Assembly: GCA_965223325.1 (NCBI GenBank) | Contig: CBDCWI010000001.1 | Location: 1,824,001-1,888,000 of the forward strand | DNA length: 64,000 nt | Origin: Candidatus Multivoradales bacterium | GTDB taxonomy: Bacteria > Acidobacteriota > Thermoanaerobaculia > Multivoradales > Multivoraceae | Direction: 5' to 3' | In this document: piece by piece, positions 1-6,384 of the stretch | Layout of the letters: each line of letters begins with the position of its first letter | Numbering within the stretch: the stretch's first letter is position 1 | Position numbers and translations under genes: made by a program | Notes under the pieces: model-generated | Database searches by the model: none | Told to the model about the DNA's origin: nothing | The model's input: only the letters and a program-made list of their open reading frames with translations

Positions 1-586
1 AGGGGCGGGCGGGAACGGTCGTTTCCGCGCCGGCAGCGCCAGGAGAAGCGCTCGCCGAACGACCCTCACTGGCTATCAACCGAAAGCGCCCCGCGAGGCT
101 CACGTCGCCTATGCCCTCGATGGTTTCGTTGCGATGATGAATGCTGGTGAACTCGGAACGTATGGCGCCGGTTTCATCTTCGAAGGCCGCTCGAGTTTCG
201 ACGCTGCGCAGTGGTACCTGAACCTCCAGGGCCGCCCGCTCGGTCAGGGCGTAGCTGCCGCGCACGACAACGGTGTCGAGCGACAGATCAACGTGATGGA
301 CACGCGGCTGGTCTACGAGCGGCACGCCCGGCTCGTACTGGTCAGGATCGACCCCGTGCGACGTCTCGACGCGAGTCGACAGCCACGTCAAATCGAGCCG
401 GAAAGCTCCGGGTTCGAGATCGACCGAGAGATGCGTCCCTCCAGCCTGGAGGTTGGGGTTCGTTCAGGCGGTTCAACCACTCGACGCCCAGGCAGCTGGA
501 ATCAGCTGGACGAGTGCCAGGGCGACGAGGATCGGCAGAGCCGCTTTCCGCCGCGAGGGCAACGAGGGCGAGGGGGTTCTTCTCAA
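1..586 (-). CDS. Putative exported selenoprotein with UxxU motif; probable outer-membrane beta-barrel/transporter (3' end runs off the window)
   Basis: Manual translation. TTG start at 586 overlaps the upstream stop (TTGA). Signal peptide MRRTPSPSLPSRRKAALPILVALALVQLIPAAWA, then SSG-TGA(475-473)-T-A-TGA(466-464)-TNPNLQAGG. The frame stays open to base 1, with amphipathic beta-strand patterns (FRLDLTWLST, VVVRGSYAL, LEVQVPL), HH motifs and IHHRNETIEGIGDVSLAGRFRL. A SECIS-like hairpin lies at 438-452. Confidence 0.75.
438..452 (-). promoter_or_regulatory. Putative bacterial SECIS element for the UxxU gene
   Basis: mRNA CCUCCA-GGC-UGGAGG: a 6-bp perfect stem with a G-containing apical loop, starting +12 nt after the second UGA (+21 after the first). 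Confidence 0.65.
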
Positions 587-1281
587 CGCCTCGCCTTCTC
601 GATCAGGCGGTCGAGCTTCTCGAAGTCGAGACCGGAAACGAACCCGACGCGGCGCGGGCCCTTCTTCTCGTGCAGATGCCAGACCTCGACATAGGGCAAA
701 CCCGAGACTTTGGTGAGGTAGCGCTTGGCGACCTCGGAGTCCCAGTCGACGACGTTGAGCTTGCGAACGGCCAGGCTGGGGTCTTTCCCGACTCGTTCGA
801 TCAGTCCGCGGTCGAGTTCGCGGCAAGGGCCACACCACTCGGCCCAGAAATCGAAGATGACGACCTTGCCAGCGGTAACCTCGGGCTCGATATCGGCGTC
901 CTTGCCGTCGCGCGACAGCCAGGCCACGTCGGCGTCTTTTGGAAAGTCTGCGGGCGGCAGGTAGAAGCCCTTGCCCTTCCCGACCACGACCTCTACACCG
1001 GGGTCGGCTGCGGCGACCGCTTCCGCGATGAGTGAATCAACCGACAGCAGGCTGTCGTCGAAATCGACCAACACTTCAGCCGCCTTCAAATCGAAAGACG
1101 CGGCGTTGACTCCCGAAAGAGCTTCGAGTTGCGCGACGACCGCCGCGCCGCAGCTCTGTCAGTCGAGCGCCCGCAAAGAGAGCGTTACCTCACGGGCCGC
1201 CAGGGGCCAAGAGACCGCGAAGAACAGGATGGCTGCGACACCGGCGCGAACTCGCGCAGGGTTCAAGATGGAGACCGACAT
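583..1281 (-). CDS. Putative exported selenoprotein: HMA (heavy-metal-associated, UxxC) domain fused to thioredoxin (WCGPC), 232 aa
   Basis: ORFs 1159..1347 and 583..1089 are in the same frame, separated only by TGA at 1161-1159. Readthrough gives signal peptide MSVSILNPARVRAGVAAILFFAVSWPLAA, then REVTLSLRALD-U-QSC-GAAVVAQLEALSGVNAASFDLKAAEVLVDFD (MerP/CopZ-like GMxCxxC pattern), then thioredoxin GKVVIFDFWAEWCGPC. GAGG RBS precedes ATG 1281. Confidence 0.85.
1131..1148 (-). promoter_or_regulatory. Putative bacterial SECIS element for the HMA-thioredoxin gene
   Basis: mRNA GCGCGGC-GGUC-GUCGCGC: a 7-bp stem at +11..+28 after UGA with a GGUC loop at +18..+21, similar to the E. coli fdhF SECIS loop in sequence and spacing. 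Confidence 0.75.
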
Positions 1282-1662
1282 TCTTGGGACCTCGTATTGG
1301 GACCGCCTCGCGAACTTACCGGCGACGCAGAGCGATTGGAGCGGCAAGACGGACGTTTAGCCTAGCCGATCTACGGCGCGCTCTGAATCGCTGACTGGTG
1401 GTTCGCATGGCGGCGCGGCGGGGCGTGTTCCCGGCGAAGGCGCCGGAGACAGTGCCTGCTAGGCTGTCCCAACGTTCGAGAGTTTCAGTCGGTCGGTCCA
1501 CGGTTGATCGTGGTTTCCGATGCACGCCTCTCAGTCGACAGCTCGCGAGAAGCAACGCGGAGCACGCCTGAGAGCGCTGGCTCCATGTTCTCCTTTGCTC
1601 TTTGACCGTCTGGTTCTTCTACGCCCTCTCCGGAGGCCACCATTCGATCAGGAGTCTGAACC

Positions 1663-4600
1663 ATGAGAACACCAACCGCCCCCTGCCGCTCCACCTTCGC
1701 TTCCCTCTCTGCTCGCGCAGTGGTTCTCGCGGTTCTCGGGCTCAGCCTCCTCGTCGTCGGCCAGCCGGCATTCGCCCAGACCGCCGGCTCGATCGAGGGT
1801 GCGGTCACCAGCGTCGACGGGGCCGCCATCCTAGGGGCAACGGTGACCCTGTCAGGTGAGGCGCTCCAGGGGCCACCGCTGGTGGCGACCACGGGTGCCG
1901 ACGGGCGCTACCGCCTTTCGCCGGTACCGGCCGGGACCTATGAACTGGCCGTCGAGTCGAGTGACGGGAGCTTCACGCGACCCGAGGTGATCGTGGGTGT
2001 CAACGCTTCGCTCACCATCGACTGGACCGTCGGCCAGCAAGACACCCTCACGGTCATCGGCGAGGCTCCCCTGATCGAGGTCACCCGCTCCGACTTGGCC
2101 TCACGGGTGCCCCAGCAGGCGATCGAAAACCTGCCGCTCAACGGCCGCAACGTCGAAGACCTCGTCAACCTGGTCCCGGGCGTCAAGCCCAACCCAGCCG
2201 GCGTTGCCGACCAGCAGTTCTCGATCTTCGGTGAACGGGCAGCCGCCACCTCATTCATCGTCGATGGCGCCGATAACAACGACCCGCTCGACGGCGGCGC
2301 CTTCCAGCGCTACTCACAGGACTCGATCCAGGAGTTCGAGGTCATCACCACAGGCTACGAGGCCGAGTTCGGCAAGGCCCAGGGGGGCGTGGTCAACGTG
2401 CTCACACGCTCCGGTGGCAACGACCTCAAGGGCTCGCTCTTCTACTTCATGCGCAATGACTCCTGGGACTCTTCGAACGTCTCCGGACAAGAAGTCCCCA
2501 AGCTCGAGCGCGACCAGTATGGAGCCTCGCTCGGAGGCCGTCTGGTCGAGGACCGCGCCTACTACTTCGTTTCGGCTGAGCTGCTCGACGAGAAGCGCGG
2601 CCGCAACCTCGACTTTTCCCAGGTGCCGTCCTGGGTGCAGAACGGCCTCGCCACGCCTGGTTCTCTCAGCGAGAACTTCGGCCTCGGCCCAGAGGACGAA
2701 GGTCTGGTGGCGCTCGGCAAGATCGACCTCGTGCCCAACGACTCACACCGCCTCTCCTTCAGCTATAACCGCACCGATGACGAAGCCGCGGGCGAGATCC
2801 CCAGCGGCATCGCCGGCTCGATCGTCATGCCCAGCGGCGCTCGCACCCAGGACCGCGCGTCCGACAGCTTCACTCTGCGCGACACCTGGATCGCTGGACC
2901 GTCGATGTTTCTCGAATCGAACGCCAAGTACCTCGACGGCACGACCGGCAGCAACCTCGACCGTGCGGACCGCGGCGAGACCGTGCTGCTTCTCTTGCGC
3001 TCTGGATTCATTCAGACTGGCGCGCCGGTCGGCGGTCGCTCGGAGCGCAACATCGAGCGCCTGCAGATCGCACAGGACTTCACCTGGATCCCGCAGGGCG
3101 CAACCAACCACACGTTCAAGTTCGGCTGGGACTACACCGACACCACGCTCGACGGTTTCAACGAGGTCTGGAACGATGTCGAGTATTCGGCGGCGTTCCT
3201 CAACCCGAACGCGGCCGGCGTGATGCAGGACCTGTTCTCGCGTTTCGGCTTCGAGCAGTCGGCCGCACGCTTCTTCAACCTCTCGGCCAACCCCGACGGT
3301 CGCTTAAACCTCGATATCTCGAACGAGGACGTTGGCGTCTTCGCTCAGGACCAGTGGCAGGTGGCCGACAACGTCACCGTCAACCTCGGCCTCCGGTGGG
3401 ATCGTGCCAGCCTCTTCGGCGACGACGAAGACAACTTCGGCCCGCGCGCCGGCATCACCTGGGATATCAGCGGTGACTACCGCACGATCCTCAAGGCCTC
3501 GGCAGGCATCTTCCACGATCGCAACGCCCTCGCCGCAGCGGCCGGGGTCCCCTCAAAGGGTGGCATCTTCACTCGCAACGCCTTCGACGTCGCCCTGCCA
3601 ACACTGGGCTACGACTACTCCGACTCGCTGATCGATCTAGTCATCACCTCGGGGTTCCCGATCGGCGGCGGAGCGCGCTCGCCGGCAGAGAACCCGTCCT
3701 ATCGCGCCTTCGCTGACGCCCTGCGCGCCAACCCGCTGGCGCTCTACGACATCCTCGGCATCGCAGTCAGCGATCCATCGCGTCCGCCAACCGTGACCGC
3801 CGACAACATCCAGGCGCTTTCGGGCATGTCTCCCGACCAGGCGGTCAACCTGCTCGAAACCATGTGGCCGGGCACCGACTGGGCGTTCTTCGATGTGCCG
3901 GGCGGCTCCATTCTCGGTGACCGGGTGCTTTCGTTCCTACCTCGCGGCCCGTTGAGCACCAGTCGCAACGTCCAGGTCTACGACCGTGACGAAACGCCCA
4001 TGACCACGGCCTTCACGATCGGCGTCGAGCACCAGTGGGGCCCTGACATCACGCTGGGTCTCGCCTACGTCCACCGTGAGACCGAGGATCTACTGACGCA
4101 GCGCATCGTCAACCTCTTCGACGCCCAACCGGGCGATCCCAACTTCGGCCAAACGACCGATGGCGGAGCGCGCATCACTCAGGTGGGCTACGACGGCTTC
4201 ATCGACTACGACGGCGTGGTCCTGAGCGTGCGGCGCCCGTTCCGAGATCGCTACGGCTTCTCCTTGTCCTATACCTGGTCGGACGCCGAAGACAACCTTC
4301 TCACCGGCAACGTCGGCTCAGGCTTCAGCAACAACAACCATCCCGAGTTCGACATCGGCGAGTCCAACCTGTCGGCACCGAACGTCGCGGTCGCAAGCAT
4401 CACTTCGCTTCTACCGCTCGACTTCCGGGTCAGCGCCGTCTTGTTCCATCGAGATGGCAACGCCTTCTCACCGCGCGGCATCGTCGACACCGACGGCGAC
4501 GGGCTCGTCGACCAGCGCGACCTTTCCGTTCCACGCAACTCCTTCCGGGTCGATGACTTCACGTCGCTTGACATTCGCCTAGAGAAGCCCTTCCAGCTAC

Positions 4601-4767
4601 CGGACGGCTACGAGATCAACCTGTTGATCGACGTCTTCAACGTCACCAACGAGCGCAACGTGGCAAACGTCAACCCAGTCTCAGGACCAGACTTCGGAAC
4701 TCCCAACGAGTTCTTCCCGGGCCGCGAGATCCAGGCAGGCGTGCGTTTCTACATCGGCGGTCGCTGA
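1663..4767 (+). CDS. TonB-dependent receptor (Oar-like) with N-terminal carboxypeptidase-regulatory-like domain
   Basis: Signal peptide (AFA-Q), GSIEGAVT..GATVTL domain, LPLNGRN plug motif, DSIQEFEVITTGYEAEFG, FAQDQWQV..NLGLRWD, C-terminal PGREIQAGVRFY. AGGAG RBS. Confidence 0.93.
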   Translation: MRTPTAPCRSTFASLSARAVVLAVLGLSLLVVGQPAFAQTAGSIEGAVTSVDGAAILGATVTLSGEALQGPPLVATTGADGRYRLSPVPAGTYELAVESSDGSFTRPEVIVGVNASLTIDWTVGQQDTLTVIGEAPLIEVTRSDLASRVPQQAIENLPLNGRNVEDLVNLVPGVKPNPAGVADQQFSIFGERAAATSFIVDGADNNDPLDGGAFQRYSQDSIQEFEVITTGYEAEFGKAQGGVVNVLTRSGGNDLKGSLFYFMRNDSWDSSNVSGQEVPKLERDQYGASLGGRLVEDRAYYFVSAELLDEKRGRNLDFSQVPSWVQNGLATPGSLSENFGLGPEDEGLVALGKIDLVPNDSHRLSFSYNRTDDEAAGEIPSGIAGSIVMPSGARTQDRASDSFTLRDTWIAGPSMFLESNAKYLDGTTGSNLDRADRGETVLLLLRSGFIQTGAPVGGRSERNIERLQIAQDFTWIPQGATNHTFKFGWDYTDTTLDGFNEVWNDVEYSAAFLNPNAAGVMQDLFSRFGFEQSAARFFNLSANPDGRLNLDISNEDVGVFAQDQWQVADNVTVNLGLRWDRASLFGDDEDNFGPRAGITWDISGDYRTILKASAGIFHDRNALAAAAGVPSKGGIFTRNAFDVALPTLGYDYSDSLIDLVITSGFPIGGGARSPAENPSYRAFADALRANPLALYDILGIAVSDPSRPPTVTADNIQALSGMSPDQAVNLLETMWPGTDWAFFDVPGGSILGDRVLSFLPRGPLSTSRNVQVYDRDETPMTTAFTIGVEHQWGPDITLGLAYVHRETEDLLTQRIVNLFDAQPGDPNFGQTTDGGARITQVGYDGFIDYDGVVLSVRRPFRDRYGFSLSYTWSDAEDNLLTGNVGSGFSNNNHPEFDIGESNLSAPNVAVASITSLLPLDFRVSAVLFHRDGNAFSPRGIVDTDGDGLVDQRDLSVPRNSFRVDDFTSLDIRLEKPFQLPDGYEINLLIDVFNVTNERNVANVNPVSGPDFGTPNEFFPGREIQAGVRFYIGGR

Positions 4768-4924: not shown

Positions 4925-5395
4925 ATGGCACCACGATCTCCAAAGACGTTCACCTCGCAAGAAGCGCGCGGGGAGTCCTTTGTACCGGTCATGAGGGAGT
5001 TGGTGCGTGCCTATCAGGCGTTCGAGATGTTCGATTCGCGGCTTTTACGCTCGCAGGGGCTGACCACTTGTCAGGCCGACGTTCTCTTTACGCTGGGCAA
5101 CACCAGCGGCATGTCCTTCAAGGAGCTTGGCGAACGCACGCTGATCACCAAGGGCACTCTCACCGGCGTGGTCGATCGCATGGCTGCTAAAGGACTCGTT
5201 GTGCGTCGACCGTCGCCTGAGGACGGGCGAAGCACGATTGCCCTTCTCACTCGCAAGGGCGAGCGCCTCTTCGAGGAGCGTTTCCCGGCCCACATCGCCC
5301 GCCTCAAAGAGCGATTCGATCGCCTGTCGAAGCGTGAACTCGACCAGTCTCTGGAGACCCTCGAACGCCTGCGGGCAATCTTTGACGCTGACTGA
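4925..5395 (+). CDS. MarR family transcriptional regulator
   Basis: GLTTCQADVLFTL, winged HTH ITKGTLTGVVDRMAAKGLVVR, and DGRSTIALLTRKG. Confidence 0.92.
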   Translation: MAPRSPKTFTSQEARGESFVPVMRELVRAYQAFEMFDSRLLRSQGLTTCQADVLFTLGNTSGMSFKELGERTLITKGTLTGVVDRMAAKGLVVRRPSPEDGRSTIALLTRKGERLFEERFPAHIARLKERFDRLSKRELDQSLETLERLRAIFDAD

Positions 5396-5910: not shown

Positions 5911-6384
5911 ATGACCGACACAACAGAATCCGCACCCGCTCATCGCATCGCCCCAGACGATCTCGGTCTGGCGCTCATCCGCCTGATCCTCGGAGTCGTC
6001 TTCGCCTTTCATGGAGCTCAAAAGCTCTTTGGTTGGTTCGGGGGCTTCGGCATCGACGGCACGGCGCAGTTCTTCTCTGGCATCGGCCTTCCGCTTCCGA
6101 CGCTCAGCGCCTACCTGGCTGGGGGCGTGGAGCTCTTCGGGGGACTCCTTGTGATGGCAGGTCTCTTGACCCGCACGAGCGCAGCCGCAACAGCCTTCAC
6201 GATGTTCGTCGCCTCGTTCACGGCACACAGTGGCTTTGCGACCGCCAACAACGGGATGGAGTTCCCTCTCACCCTCGCCCTGGTGTCTGTTGCCCTGGTG
6301 CTGACCGGACCGGGGCGCCTCACGGTGGCATCGCTGGCGCTAGCGAGAGACCGTCAACAGGCGATCTCACGGGCAACGGTGTAA
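5911..6384 (+). CDS. DoxX family membrane protein
   Basis: RLILGVVFAFHGAQKLFGWFGG, ELFGGLL and NGMEFPL..GPGRL motifs. Confidence 0.92.
   Translation: MTDTTESAPAHRIAPDDLGLALIRLILGVVFAFHGAQKLFGWFGGFGIDGTAQFFSGIGLPLPTLSAYLAGGVELFGGLLVMAGLLTRTSAAATAFTMFVASFTAHSGFATANNGMEFPLTLALVSVALVLTGPGRLTVASLALARDRQQAISRATV

What the first reader, a model, noticed from the sequence alone, without database searches (positions are those of the whole stretch)
583..1281. Exported HMA-thioredoxin fusion with Sec in the metal-binding loop rather than in the thioredoxin site
Seen: LRALD-U-QSC occupies the GMxCxxC position of an HMA fold, while the thioredoxin domain keeps the ordinary WCGPC. In most redox selenoproteins Sec is the catalytic residue of the Trx fold, so this placement is reversed. 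Inference: the Trx domain may keep the HMA selenol/thiol reduced in the oxidising periplasm so that it can bind Cu(I)/Hg(II)/Ag(I).
Basis: partly seen in the sequence, partly recalled or inferred. Interest (0 to 1): 0.78.

Follow-up and report, generated by a model that had tools for sequence, protein, structure and literature searches.

The report
Selenium metal-binding thioredoxin beside selenium pore
This gene very probably encodes a real exported selenoprotein that joins a metal-binding domain carrying selenocysteine to a thioredoxin, and it sits next to a previously unlisted outer-membrane pore protein that begins with two selenocysteines.

Summary
Window 1281..586 (minus strand), read through TGA 1161-1159, gives a 232-aa protein with a signal-peptide-like N-terminus, an HMA domain whose metal loop reads D-U41-QS-C44, and a thioredoxin domain with WCGPC.

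Evidence that the TGA encodes Sec:
- 57 of 57 aligned full-length homologues have Cys at that column.
- An orthologue in another genus keeps the TGA.
- A 7-bp/GGUC hairpin follows it 10 nt downstream, with raised synonymous conservation and the same geometry as this genome's formate-dehydrogenase-like SECIS.
- tRNA-Sec, SelA, SelB and SelD are all present.

Sec in HMA loops has precedent (P-type ATPase UxxC, NF041115, NF045683), so the placement is unusual but not new. The fusion itself matches no curated selenoprotein family.

The next gene, which abuts or overlaps this one, encodes a FapF/COG4313-like outer-membrane barrel. Its mature N-terminus is SSG-U-TA-U-TNP. All 30 homologous loci examined keep both TGAs, followed by a covarying GGUC hairpin. 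Every one sits beside, or is fused to, this thioredoxin module. HMA is optional.

Most likely reading: the HMA-Trx protein is the periplasmic reductase and metal-loading partner of the diselenol barrel. The mechanism is inferred, not shown.

The parts
586..1281 (-). CDS of the 232-aa HMA-thioredoxin selenoprotein (ATG 1281-1279; stop TGA 585-583)
1195..1281 (-). Signal-peptide-like N-terminus (residues 1-29: basic n-region, hydrophobic AGVAAILFFAVSW, PLAA|RE)
   Evidence: Read from the sequence. pLDDT is 52-66 with no secondary structure. Homologues have comparable hydrophobic N-termini. No SignalP tool was available, so this is inferred.
982..1197 (-). HMA domain, residues 29-100 (beta-alpha-beta-beta-alpha-beta)
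   Evidence: Pfam 32.6 bits; model topology; MerP/CopZ/ATP7B fold matches
1159..1161 (-). In-frame TGA = Sec41, first ligand position of the metal loop (U-Q-S-C44)
1131..1148 (-). SECIS-like hairpin: 10-nt spacer after UGA, 7-bp stem GCGCGGC/GUCGCGC, loop GGUC
   Evidence: Folds (-13.4 kcal/mol). Identical in G003. 9 of 10 codons identical against 41% gene-wide. Same geometry as the FDH-like SECIS of this genome.
589..927 (-). Thioredoxin-fold domain, residues 119-231
823..837 (-). WCGPC active-site motif (C150, C153)
   Evidence: W149/C150/P152/C153 invariant in 59 sequences
1..586 (-). 5' part of the downstream gene, a UxxU outer-membrane barrel (start TTG 586-584, which overlaps the upstream stop, or TTG 562-560). 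It runs off the window to G000:C1:1823474. The protein is 363 aa counted from the second TTG.
473..475 (-). First in-frame TGA of the barrel gene (U30 of P0078)
464..466 (-). Second in-frame TGA of the barrel gene (U33)
438..452 (-). SECIS-like hairpin of the barrel gene: 11 nt after the second UGA, stem CCUCCA/UGGAGG, loop GGC
   Evidence: In 13 related genes the equivalent hairpin has an invariant GGUC loop, 92.3% paired cells and 2 of 6 pairs with compensatory change.

Best explanation
The gene encodes an exported (periplasmic) selenoprotein. UGA-41 is read as selenocysteine with the help of a SECIS hairpin 10 nt downstream. This puts a selenol next to Cys44 in the metal-binding loop of an HMA domain, which a well-ordered linker joins to a thioredoxin domain (WCGPC). 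It is the first gene of a two-gene cassette. The second gene abuts or overlaps it and encodes a FapF/COG4313-like outer-membrane barrel (12-stranded per its solved-structure look-alikes, recalled). The barrel's mature N-terminus carries two selenocysteines (SSG-U-TA-U-TNP), and the barrel has six invariant histidines. The HMA-Trx protein most likely works as the barrel's dedicated periplasmic partner in two ways. The Trx module would keep the N-terminal U-x-x-U in the reduced diselenol state. The HMA loop, with Sec or Cys, would bind a soft metal ion such as Cu(I) and pass it to, or take it from, the diselenol/histidine site of the barrel. Shown: the domain folds, the Sec/Cys pairing, the SECIS-type hairpins, the Sec machinery, and the strict gene pairing and gene fusions. 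Inferred: export, the direction of electron flow, the identity of the metal, and any physical contact.
For: Sec decoding:
- C41 and C44 are invariant in 59 aligned sequences.
- The TGA is conserved in G003 at 63% identity, with conserved sequence on both sides.
- The hairpin is identical in G003.
- 9 of 10 codons from U41 to A50 are identical, against 55 of 133 across the gene. This is the top window; binomial P = 0.002.
- An FDH-like gene of the same genome (...CAAT-U-HAP...) has UGA + 11 nt + 7-bp stem + GGUCU loop, the same layout.
- tRNA-Sec scores 71.9 bits with anticodon TCA. SelA, SelB and SelD are present.
- No start codon lies between the TGA and TTG 1089, yet residues 42-64 are conserved.

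Partnership with the barrel:
- tblastn with the barrel protein hits 34 rows among loci that had been fetched only for the Trx gene.
- 30 of 30 examined (27 distinct) carry U-x-x-U-[ST/A]-N-P straight after a signal peptide.
- 13 ORFs fuse the barrel, a His-rich linker and Trx, and 5 of those add a cupredoxin-like end region (Pfam-confirmed as PF13473 in the 3 scanned).
- In the 12 loci with a separate HMA-Trx gene and enough flank, the barrel gene follows it.
- In G000 the Trx stop overlaps a possible barrel start (TTGA).

Metal theme:
- HMA, His-rich linkers and Cupredoxin_1.
- Invariant H69, H89, H142, H143, H217 and H219 in the barrel.
- The barrel model has pLDDT 82.8. Its best structural matches are FapF and the COG4313 channel 4rl8.
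Against: - There is no direct evidence of selenium insertion, export, metal binding or contact between the two proteins.
- Hairpin energy alone does not separate Sec forms from Cys forms. Cys-form genes reach -16.3 and -13.2 kcal/mol, against -13.4 here. The 81-nt fold has z = 0.31 against shuffles.
- DNA is in hand for only two Sec-form HMA-Trx genes, G000 and G003.
- The UxxU segment of the barrel model has low confidence (pLDDT below 50 for residues 19-32), so its position relative to the histidines is unknown.
- No periplasmic electron donor (DsbD/CcdA type) or other conserved neighbour was found next to the pair (crude ORF clustering).
- G283 carries a UxxU barrel and a tRNA-Sec, but no SelA was detected in its 95%-complete assembly.
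- A thioredoxin reducing a diselenide is thermodynamically uphill by general chemistry (recalled).
Confidence: 0.6

Rival explanations
1. Self-contained periplasmic metallochaperone. The Trx domain only keeps its own HMA selenol/thiol pair reduced so that it can bind Cu(I), Hg(II) or Ag(I). The neighbouring barrel is merely co-transcribed.
For: The two domains are modelled as one rigid unit (pTM 0.82; linker pLDDT about 97). About 70 HMA-Trx homologues exist as a stable architecture. A second HMA(UMGU)-Trx(WCAPC) selenoprotein in G007 has no barrel gene within the 10 kb fetched.
Against: The Trx module persists next to, or fused to, the barrel in lineages that have no HMA. Every HMA-Trx locus with enough flank has the barrel gene directly downstream.
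Confidence: 0.15
2. Pure redox relay with no metal. The HMA-like U41/C44 pair works as a selenenylsulfide shuttle, carrying reducing equivalents from the Trx site to the barrel's diselenide. The barrel could equally be an outer-membrane enzyme or channel for a non-metal substrate such as a selenium or sulfur species.
For: Selenol/diselenide exchange is kinetically favoured (general chemistry, recalled). The barrel's Sec pair is obligate: no Cys form appears among 30 loci and 33 database hits. That fits catalysis better than simple metal ligation. The COG4313/FapF relatives are not metal channels.
Against: The accessory modules are all metal-binding types: HMA, His-rich linkers and Cupredoxin_1. 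The barrel has six invariant histidines.
Confidence: 0.2
3. Not a selenoprotein. The TGA is a nonsense mutation or a true stop, so the locus yields a 40-residue peptide plus, at most, a cytoplasmic Trx fragment restarted at TTG 1089.
For: Gene callers made exactly that call: P0002-P0005 are truncated Trx-only proteins. The gene's own stop codon is also TGA.
Against: - The TGA is conserved in a genome with only 62% nucleotide identity.
- Residues 42-64, between the TGA and the next possible start, are conserved.
- Cys is invariant at that column.
- There is a SECIS-type hairpin with raised synonymous conservation.
- The full Sec machinery is present.
- The adjacent gene has the same features.
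Confidence: 0.05

Closest known systems
[quoted passage not shown]
   Same: Sec replaces a Cys ligand in a CxxC-type metal loop of an HMA or HMA-like domain (review Table 1; NCBIfam names).
   Different: P0001 scores far below their cut-offs: 27.2 against 95 for NF041115, and 17.8 against 375 for NF045683. The motif here is UxxC in a signal-peptide-bearing HMA fused to a thioredoxin and paired with a UxxU barrel. No such architecture appears in the 119 families of the review table (parts 1-2 of section 7 read).
MerP / CopZ periplasmic and cytoplasmic HMA metallochaperones
   Same: Same fold (TM 0.87-0.91), and the ligand pair sits at the beta1-alpha1 loop.
   Different: Scores fall below the equivalog cut-offs: MerP 31.5 against 92.55, CopZ 34.9 against 91. 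The first ligand is Sec, the loop reads D-U-Q-S-C rather than the usual G-M-T-C-x-x-C, and the domain is fused to Trx.
Periplasmic thioredoxin-like reductases of the TlpA/ResA/CcmG type. TlpA reduces the Cys pair of the copper chaperone ScoI before copper loading (recalled; only a search listing of PMC6669012 was seen).
   Same: An exported Trx fold with W-C-x-P-C that is proposed to reduce a metal-binding chalcogen pair in the periplasm.
   Different: Only weak hits: TlpA 25.1 against 230, ResA 18.5 against 170. Here the reductase is fused to a chaperone-like domain, and the presumed client is a diselenol on an outer-membrane barrel.
FapF and COG4313 (PF13557, Phenol_MetA_deg) outer-membrane barrels with an N-terminal plug; their 12-stranded architecture is recalled (compared with the neighbouring gene)
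   Same: Best structural matches are 5o67/5o65 at E about 4e-13 and 4rl8 at E 7.5e-12 with TM 0.70. PF13557 is just at threshold in one member, 22.2 against 22, and is precomputed for 4 of 33 database hits.
   Different: P0078 itself has no Pfam or NCBIfam hit. It has an obligate N-terminal UxxU, six invariant histidines and a constant Trx partner. None of these is known for FapF or COG4313 (recalled).
UxxU selenoproteins such as eukaryotic SelL (diselenide in a Trx-fold redox motif; recalled), and the Prx-like and FmdB UxxU families (review table)
   Same: Two Sec residues spaced as in a CxxC redox or metal motif.
   Different: Here the UxxU lies two or three residues from the mature N-terminus of a beta-barrel, not inside a Trx fold.

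Membership tests
Bacterial selenoprotein (UGA decoded as Sec) | In-frame UGA aligned with Cys in homologues, with conserved sequence on both sides | tested here: met
   C41 is invariant in 59 sequences. G003 has TGA at the same column.
Bacterial selenoprotein (UGA decoded as Sec) | SECIS stem-loop shortly downstream of the UGA | tested here: met
   10-nt spacer, 7-bp stem and GGUC loop. It is identical in G003, with 9 of 10 codons identical against 41% gene-wide. It matches the layout of the FDH-like SECIS of the same genome. Energy alone is not discriminating. Rfam found no match, and whether Rfam holds a bacterial SECIS model was not checked.
Bacterial selenoprotein (UGA decoded as Sec) | Genome encodes tRNA-Sec, SelA, SelB and SelD | tested here: met
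Bacterial selenoprotein (UGA decoded as Sec) | Selenium demonstrated in the protein | not testable with these tools
   No RNA or proteomic data are available. No RNA holder was listed.
HMA domain (PF00403) | Profile score above the gathering threshold | tested here: met
   32.6 bits against 24.8. The G003 orthologue scores 35.5.
HMA domain (PF00403) | beta-alpha-beta-beta-alpha-beta fold with the ligand pair at the beta1-alpha1 junction | tested here: met
   Model topology; MerP 1osd TM 0.91
HMA domain (PF00403) | Binds a metal ion | not testable with these tools
   Needs biochemistry
Thioredoxin fold (PF00085) | Profile score above threshold, CxxC active site, Trx fold | tested here: met
   31.4 bits against 23.5; WCGPC; Foldseek TM 0.70-0.77 to thioredoxins
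Thioredoxin equivalog TIGR01068 / TrxA | Score above the curated cut-off | tested here: not met
   41.9 bits against 96.8
NF041115 UxxU metal-binding (seleno)protein | Score above the cut-off and a UxxU motif | tested here: not met
   27.2 bits against 95. The motif is UxxC.
NF045683 MerT/CopZ fusion-like selenoprotein | Score above the cut-off and a MerT membrane part | tested here: not met
   17.8 bits against 375. No MerT region is present.
MerP (TIGR02052) | Score above the cut-off | tested here: not met
   31.5 bits against 92.55
PF13557 / COG4313 outer-membrane channel (neighbouring gene) | Profile match and beta-barrel fold | tested here: inconclusive
   P0078 has no Pfam hit. L050 scores 22.2 against 22. 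The fold matches 4rl8 at TM 0.70.

The most novel reading that the evidence does not exclude
The cassette is a previously unlisted outer-membrane selenoprotein system. It consists of a FapF/COG4313-like barrel whose mature N-terminus is an obligate diselenol (U-x-x-U-S/T-N-P, with no Cys form seen), placed to work with six invariant histidines. This barrel is served by a dedicated periplasmic thioredoxin that has recruited different metal modules in different lineages: HMA with Cys, HMA with Sec, His-rich linkers, or cupredoxin. It would move or transform a soft metal (or a chalcogen species) across the outer membrane. The Sec in the HMA loop of this window would be an adaptation for selenium-to-selenium ligand or electron exchange with the barrel.
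Probability: 0.4. Interest if true: 0.85.

Novelty: new variant of a known kind. Interest (0 to 1): 0.7.

Why it matters
Gene callers truncate both genes at their TGA codons. The Trx gene is called as a 140-176 aa fragment. The barrel is called as a 'hypothetical protein' without its signal peptide or its UxxU. As a result the cassette is invisible in current annotation.

Recognising it adds an HMA-Trx fusion to the short list of proteins that use Sec as a metal ligand. More importantly, it exposes a family of outer-membrane proteins that appears to require two selenocysteines and a private thioredoxin.

That gives a concrete system in which to test two open questions. Why is selenium chosen over sulfur for metal handling outside the cytoplasm? 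How is a diselenide kept reduced in the periplasm?

Tried and rejected
- Rfam scan of window 1-3000 at E<=10 gave only chance miRNA/snoRNA-type hits and no SECIS family.
- RNAalifold on all 28 UxxU regions gave no consensus structure. Three subgroups place the hairpin in different registers, so I tested the 13-member GGUC subgroup separately.
- Hairpin free energy does not discriminate Sec forms from Cys forms.
- The metagenome scan for more Sec-form HMA-Trx genes found none closer than 45% identity.
- Crude ORF clustering found no third conserved gene, and spurious antisense ORFs dominated the second cluster.
- The window's own neighbours are unrelated and are not shared with G003: a TonB-type outer-membrane protein, MarR, SnoaL, DoxX, GNAT and an M14 peptidase.
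- The search of earlier findings was not open.
- No RNA holder was listed for the stretch, so expression is untested.
- X5 and the other small-share runs covered only short conserved parts and carry no weight.
- Literature searches found no description of an HMA-Trx selenoprotein or of a UxxU barrel. Supplements of the cited reviews were not opened and could list such families.
Full report
OBSERVATION

On the minus strand, window 1281..586 reads as one frame if TGA 1161-1159 is translated. The product is MSVSILNPARVRAGVAAILFFAVSWPLAAREVTLSLRALD-U-QSCGAAVV...FWAEWCGPCREL...EKARR, 232 residues, ending at TGA 585-583. Table-11 ORF calling splits it into a 62-aa piece and a 168-aa piece that starts at TTG 1089.

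Pfam finds both domains above their gathering scores:
- HMA, 32.6 bits against a cut-off of 24.8, residues 34-89.
- Thioredoxin, 31.4 bits against 23.5, residues 134-201.

An AlphaFold2 model built on 59 sequences has pLDDT 92.0 and pTM 0.82. Residues 29-100 form beta-alpha-beta-beta-alpha-beta, with U41 in the beta1-alpha1 loop and C44 at the start of helix 1. Residues 119-231 form a thioredoxin fold. Residues 1-28 are unstructured.

Foldseek matches the first domain to MerP 1osd (TM 0.91, rmsd 1.5 A over 75 columns), a CopZ-like protein 2l3m (0.87) and an ATP7B metal-binding domain 6a71 (0.86). It matches the second domain to many thioredoxins at TM 0.70-0.77.

IS THE TGA A SELENOCYSTEINE CODON?

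Six lines of evidence agree.

1. Cys at the same column in homologues. A search of 5.8 billion proteins returned 75 hits. About 70 are full-length 209-270 aa HMA-Trx proteins. I aligned 57 of them with the query and the G003 orthologue. The dropped hits were the four truncated calls P0002-5, P0075/76, which lack HMA, and 12 others left out to keep the set small. The U41 and C44 columns are invariant Cys, in the consensus S-L-Q-x-I-D-C-Q-S-C-G (the 29-sequence alignment shows the same).

2. Truncated calls among the closest relatives. The four closest hits (99, 66, 64 and 66% identity) are all calls of 140-176 aa that begin downstream of the TGA. This is what an in-frame stop does to gene callers.

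3. A conserved TGA in a second genome. Among 61 related genomes only G000 and G003 give a full-length match. Both have exactly one TGA inside it. G003 reads ...IELSLRGLT-U-QSCGAAVVAH....

4. A SECIS-type hairpin. Ten nucleotides after the UGA lies a perfect 7-bp stem, GCGCGGC/GUCGCGC, capped by GGUC (window 1148-1131). It is letter-for-letter identical in G003, although the two genes share only 62% nucleotide identity. Among codons that encode the same residue in both genes, 55 of 133 are identical overall. From U41 to A50, 9 of 10 are identical, which is the highest-scoring window in the gene (binomial P = 0.002).

5. A same-genome control. A formate-dehydrogenase-like gene on the other contig reads ...CAAT-U-HAP... 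It has UGA, an 11-nt spacer, a 7-bp stem GGUCGCC/GGUGACC and a GGUCU loop, which is the same geometry and loop.

6. The Sec machinery. The genome encodes tRNA-Sec (71.9 bits; ARAGORN anticodon TCA), SelA, SelB and SelD.

Three caveats apply. Folding energy alone is not diagnostic in this GC-rich DNA: the 81-nt z-score is 0.31, and some Cys-form genes fold as well or better. Rfam gave no SECIS match. DNA is in hand for only two Sec-form genes.

The TGAs are unlikely to be a one-off assembly error. Contigs from three runs of one study carry the 1700-nt stretch with no differing letter, although one of those runs may be the source of the assembly.

THE NEIGHBOUR CHANGES THE PICTURE

Directly downstream, a second frame opens at TTG 586-584, which overlaps the stop as TTGA, or at TTG 562-560. 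It encodes a typical signal peptide (...LPILVALALVQLIPAAWA) followed by SSG-U-TA-U-TNPNLQAGG. The two in-frame TGAs lie at 475-473 and 466-464. About 330 further residues run off the window into G000:C1.

G003 has the same arrangement...IPAAWASTG-U-TA-U-TNPNLRAGG.

The protein (P0078, 363 aa) has no Pfam or NCBIfam hit. Its model is a beta-barrel with pLDDT 82.8 and pTM 0.80. The best structural matches are the FapF secretion channel (E about 4e-13) and the COG4313 channel 4rl8 (E 7.5e-12, TM 0.70).

tblastn of P0078 against all loci fetched for the Trx gene gave 34 hit rows. I examined 30. The four dropped were the query's own two copies, a duplicate of G003, and one hit whose N-terminus lies off its contig. 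All 30 (27 distinct sequences) show a signal peptide followed by U-x-x-U-[S/T/A]-N-P. Examples are UAGUSNPNLPVGG, UPAUSNPAIPRGG and USGUSNPNLPGGG.

No Cys form was seen there or in other searches:
- A database search for the barrel gave 33 hits, none covering more than 87% of the query. The 11 sequences I printed all start downstream of the UxxU.
- A sample of 401 genomes of the phylum gave 5 with the barrel at E<=1e-10. The 4 matches that reach the N-terminus each contain '2 TGA'.

A hairpin follows the second UGA. In G000 it has an 11-nt spacer, the stem CCUCCA/UGGAGG and a GGC loop (window 452-438). In a 13-member subgroup the loop GGUC is invariant, 92.3% of cells pair, 2 of 6 pairs show compensatory changes, and 0 of 500 shuffles reach the observed covariation.

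The Sec machinery was checked in nine other carrier genomes:
- SelA is clear in G003, G010, G129 and G370 and in G007, G099, G302 and G135.
- SelA was not detected in G283.
- tRNA-Sec scores above 70 bits in all five genomes tested for it, including G283.

ARCHITECTURE ACROSS LINEAGES

The thioredoxin module is the constant companion of the barrel, and HMA is not.

- In 13 loci one ORF of 441-673 aa contains the UxxU barrel, a His/Asp/Glu-rich linker and the Trx domain (W-C-x-P-C). In five of them a cupredoxin-like region follows at the C-terminus; the three scanned score above the Pfam threshold for PF13473.
- In 3 loci a short Trx without HMA precedes the barrel.
- In 12 loci an HMA-Trx gene precedes it. 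Ten have CxxC, and two (G000, G003) have UxxC.
- One further HMA-Trx locus (L041) ends at the contig edge.

By matching contig lengths, P0003 with P0084 and P0004 with P0083 also appear to be pairs. This is an inference.

The barrel alignment has invariant U30, U33, N35, P36, H69, H89, H142, H143, H217, H219, D153, W298 and N305. No third gene is conserved. The window's other neighbours are unrelated.

HOW IT MOST LIKELY WORKS

These points are shown:
- Two adjacent genes carry SECIS-type recoding signals.
- One encodes an exported-looking HMA-Trx, the other an outer-membrane-type barrel with an N-terminal U-x-x-U.
- The pairing is strict, and the Trx module is repeatedly fused to the barrel.

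These points are inferred:
- The barrel's N-terminus faces the periplasm, as in outer-membrane barrels generally. In FapF and COG4313 channels the N-terminal segment plugs the pore (recalled).
- The Trx module keeps the diselenol reduced in the oxidising periplasm.
- The metal modules (HMA, His-rich linkers, cupredoxin) deliver or receive a soft metal ion that the two selenolates and the histidines bind.

In G000 and G003, Sec in the HMA loop would give a ligand or redox partner of matching chemistry. The metal, the direction of transport and the electron source are all unknown. The rivals are listed separately: a self-contained chaperone, a metal-free selenium redox relay or enzyme, and a pseudogene.

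COMPARISON WITH WHAT IS KNOWN

A 2026 review lists 119 prokaryotic selenoprotein families. I read Table 1 in section 7, parts 1-2, and found passages in the text. The table includes a P-type ATPase with UxxC, the NF041115 UxxU metal-binding protein and a MerT-type protein. NCBIfam also holds NF045683. Sec as a ligand in HMA-type loops is therefore known.

P0001 fails the cut-offs of all these models and of MerP, CopZ, TrxA and TlpA. Neither an HMA-Trx fusion nor a UxxU barrel appears in the review table, in a 2022 review (passages only), or in four full-text searches. Supplements were not opened.

A second, independent HMA-Trx selenoprotein exists in G007. Its HMA loop reads G-A-T-U-M-G-U-P, its Trx site is WCAPC, and it scores 42.5 bits against NF041115, below the cut-off of 95.

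VERDICT

The finding is real and the gene is very probably a selenoprotein, at about 0.9. As 'Sec in an HMA loop' it is a new variant of a known kind.

Its main value is the context. It is one half of a cassette whose other half looks like an unlisted, obligately two-Sec outer-membrane protein family. The functional model is plausible and testable but unproven.

Noticed in passing
L025:1489-2289 (minus strand; genome G007): A second HMA-thioredoxin selenoprotein of a different type. Its HMA loop reads ...SGAT-U-MG-U-P, its Trx site is WCAPC, and it scores 42.5 bits against NF041115 (cut-off 95). It is followed by another HMA-like/Trx-like gene. No UxxU barrel was found in the 10 kb fetched.
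   Followed up: partly
G000:C2 about 861-862 kb (L181, minus strand): A formate-dehydrogenase-like molybdopterin enzyme with one in-frame TGA (...CAAT-U-HAP...) and a 7-bp/GGUCU SECIS hairpin 11 nt downstream. It was used here as a same-genome control.
   Followed up: partly
L046, L047, L049, L102, L110 (metagenome and genome contigs): Single ORFs of 569-673 aa fuse the UxxU barrel, a long His/Asp/Glu-rich linker, thioredoxin and, in L047 and L102, Pro/Thr-rich spacers. A cupredoxin-like end region follows; it is Pfam-confirmed as Cupredoxin_1 (PF13473) in L046, L047 and L110, the three scanned.
   Followed up: partly
L095 (genome G302), minus strand 1076-1495: The UxxU barrel ORF here stops after 140 residues (TAG). 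This may be a broken copy or a frameshift and was not resolved.
   Followed up: no
Genome G283: It carries a UxxU barrel with both TGAs and a tRNA-Sec (71.6 bits). No SelA above the cut-off was found in the 95%-complete assembly, while its congener G302 has one.
   Followed up: partly
G000:C1:1389082-1390062 (L018): The SelD match lies in an open frame of 769 aa, which suggests SelD is fused to another domain.
   Followed up: no
P0075 (metagenome protein, 211 aa): A Trx homologue that lacks HMA. Its N-terminal region instead has repeated Cys/His motifs (C-x-E-H-x-V-P-x-x-x-C type), possibly an alternative metal-binding module.
   Followed up: no
window 1663-4767 (+), 4925-5395 (+), 5911-6384 (+): A divergently transcribed TonB-type outer-membrane protein with a CarboxypepD_reg domain, then MarR, SnoaL-like and DoxX genes. 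They are not conserved next to the cassette in G003.
   Followed up: partly
window 799-862: Contig depth in public runs spikes here. Many unrelated organisms' contigs match the conserved WCGPC-coding stretch. This is an artefact of conservation, not of copy number.
   Followed up: yes
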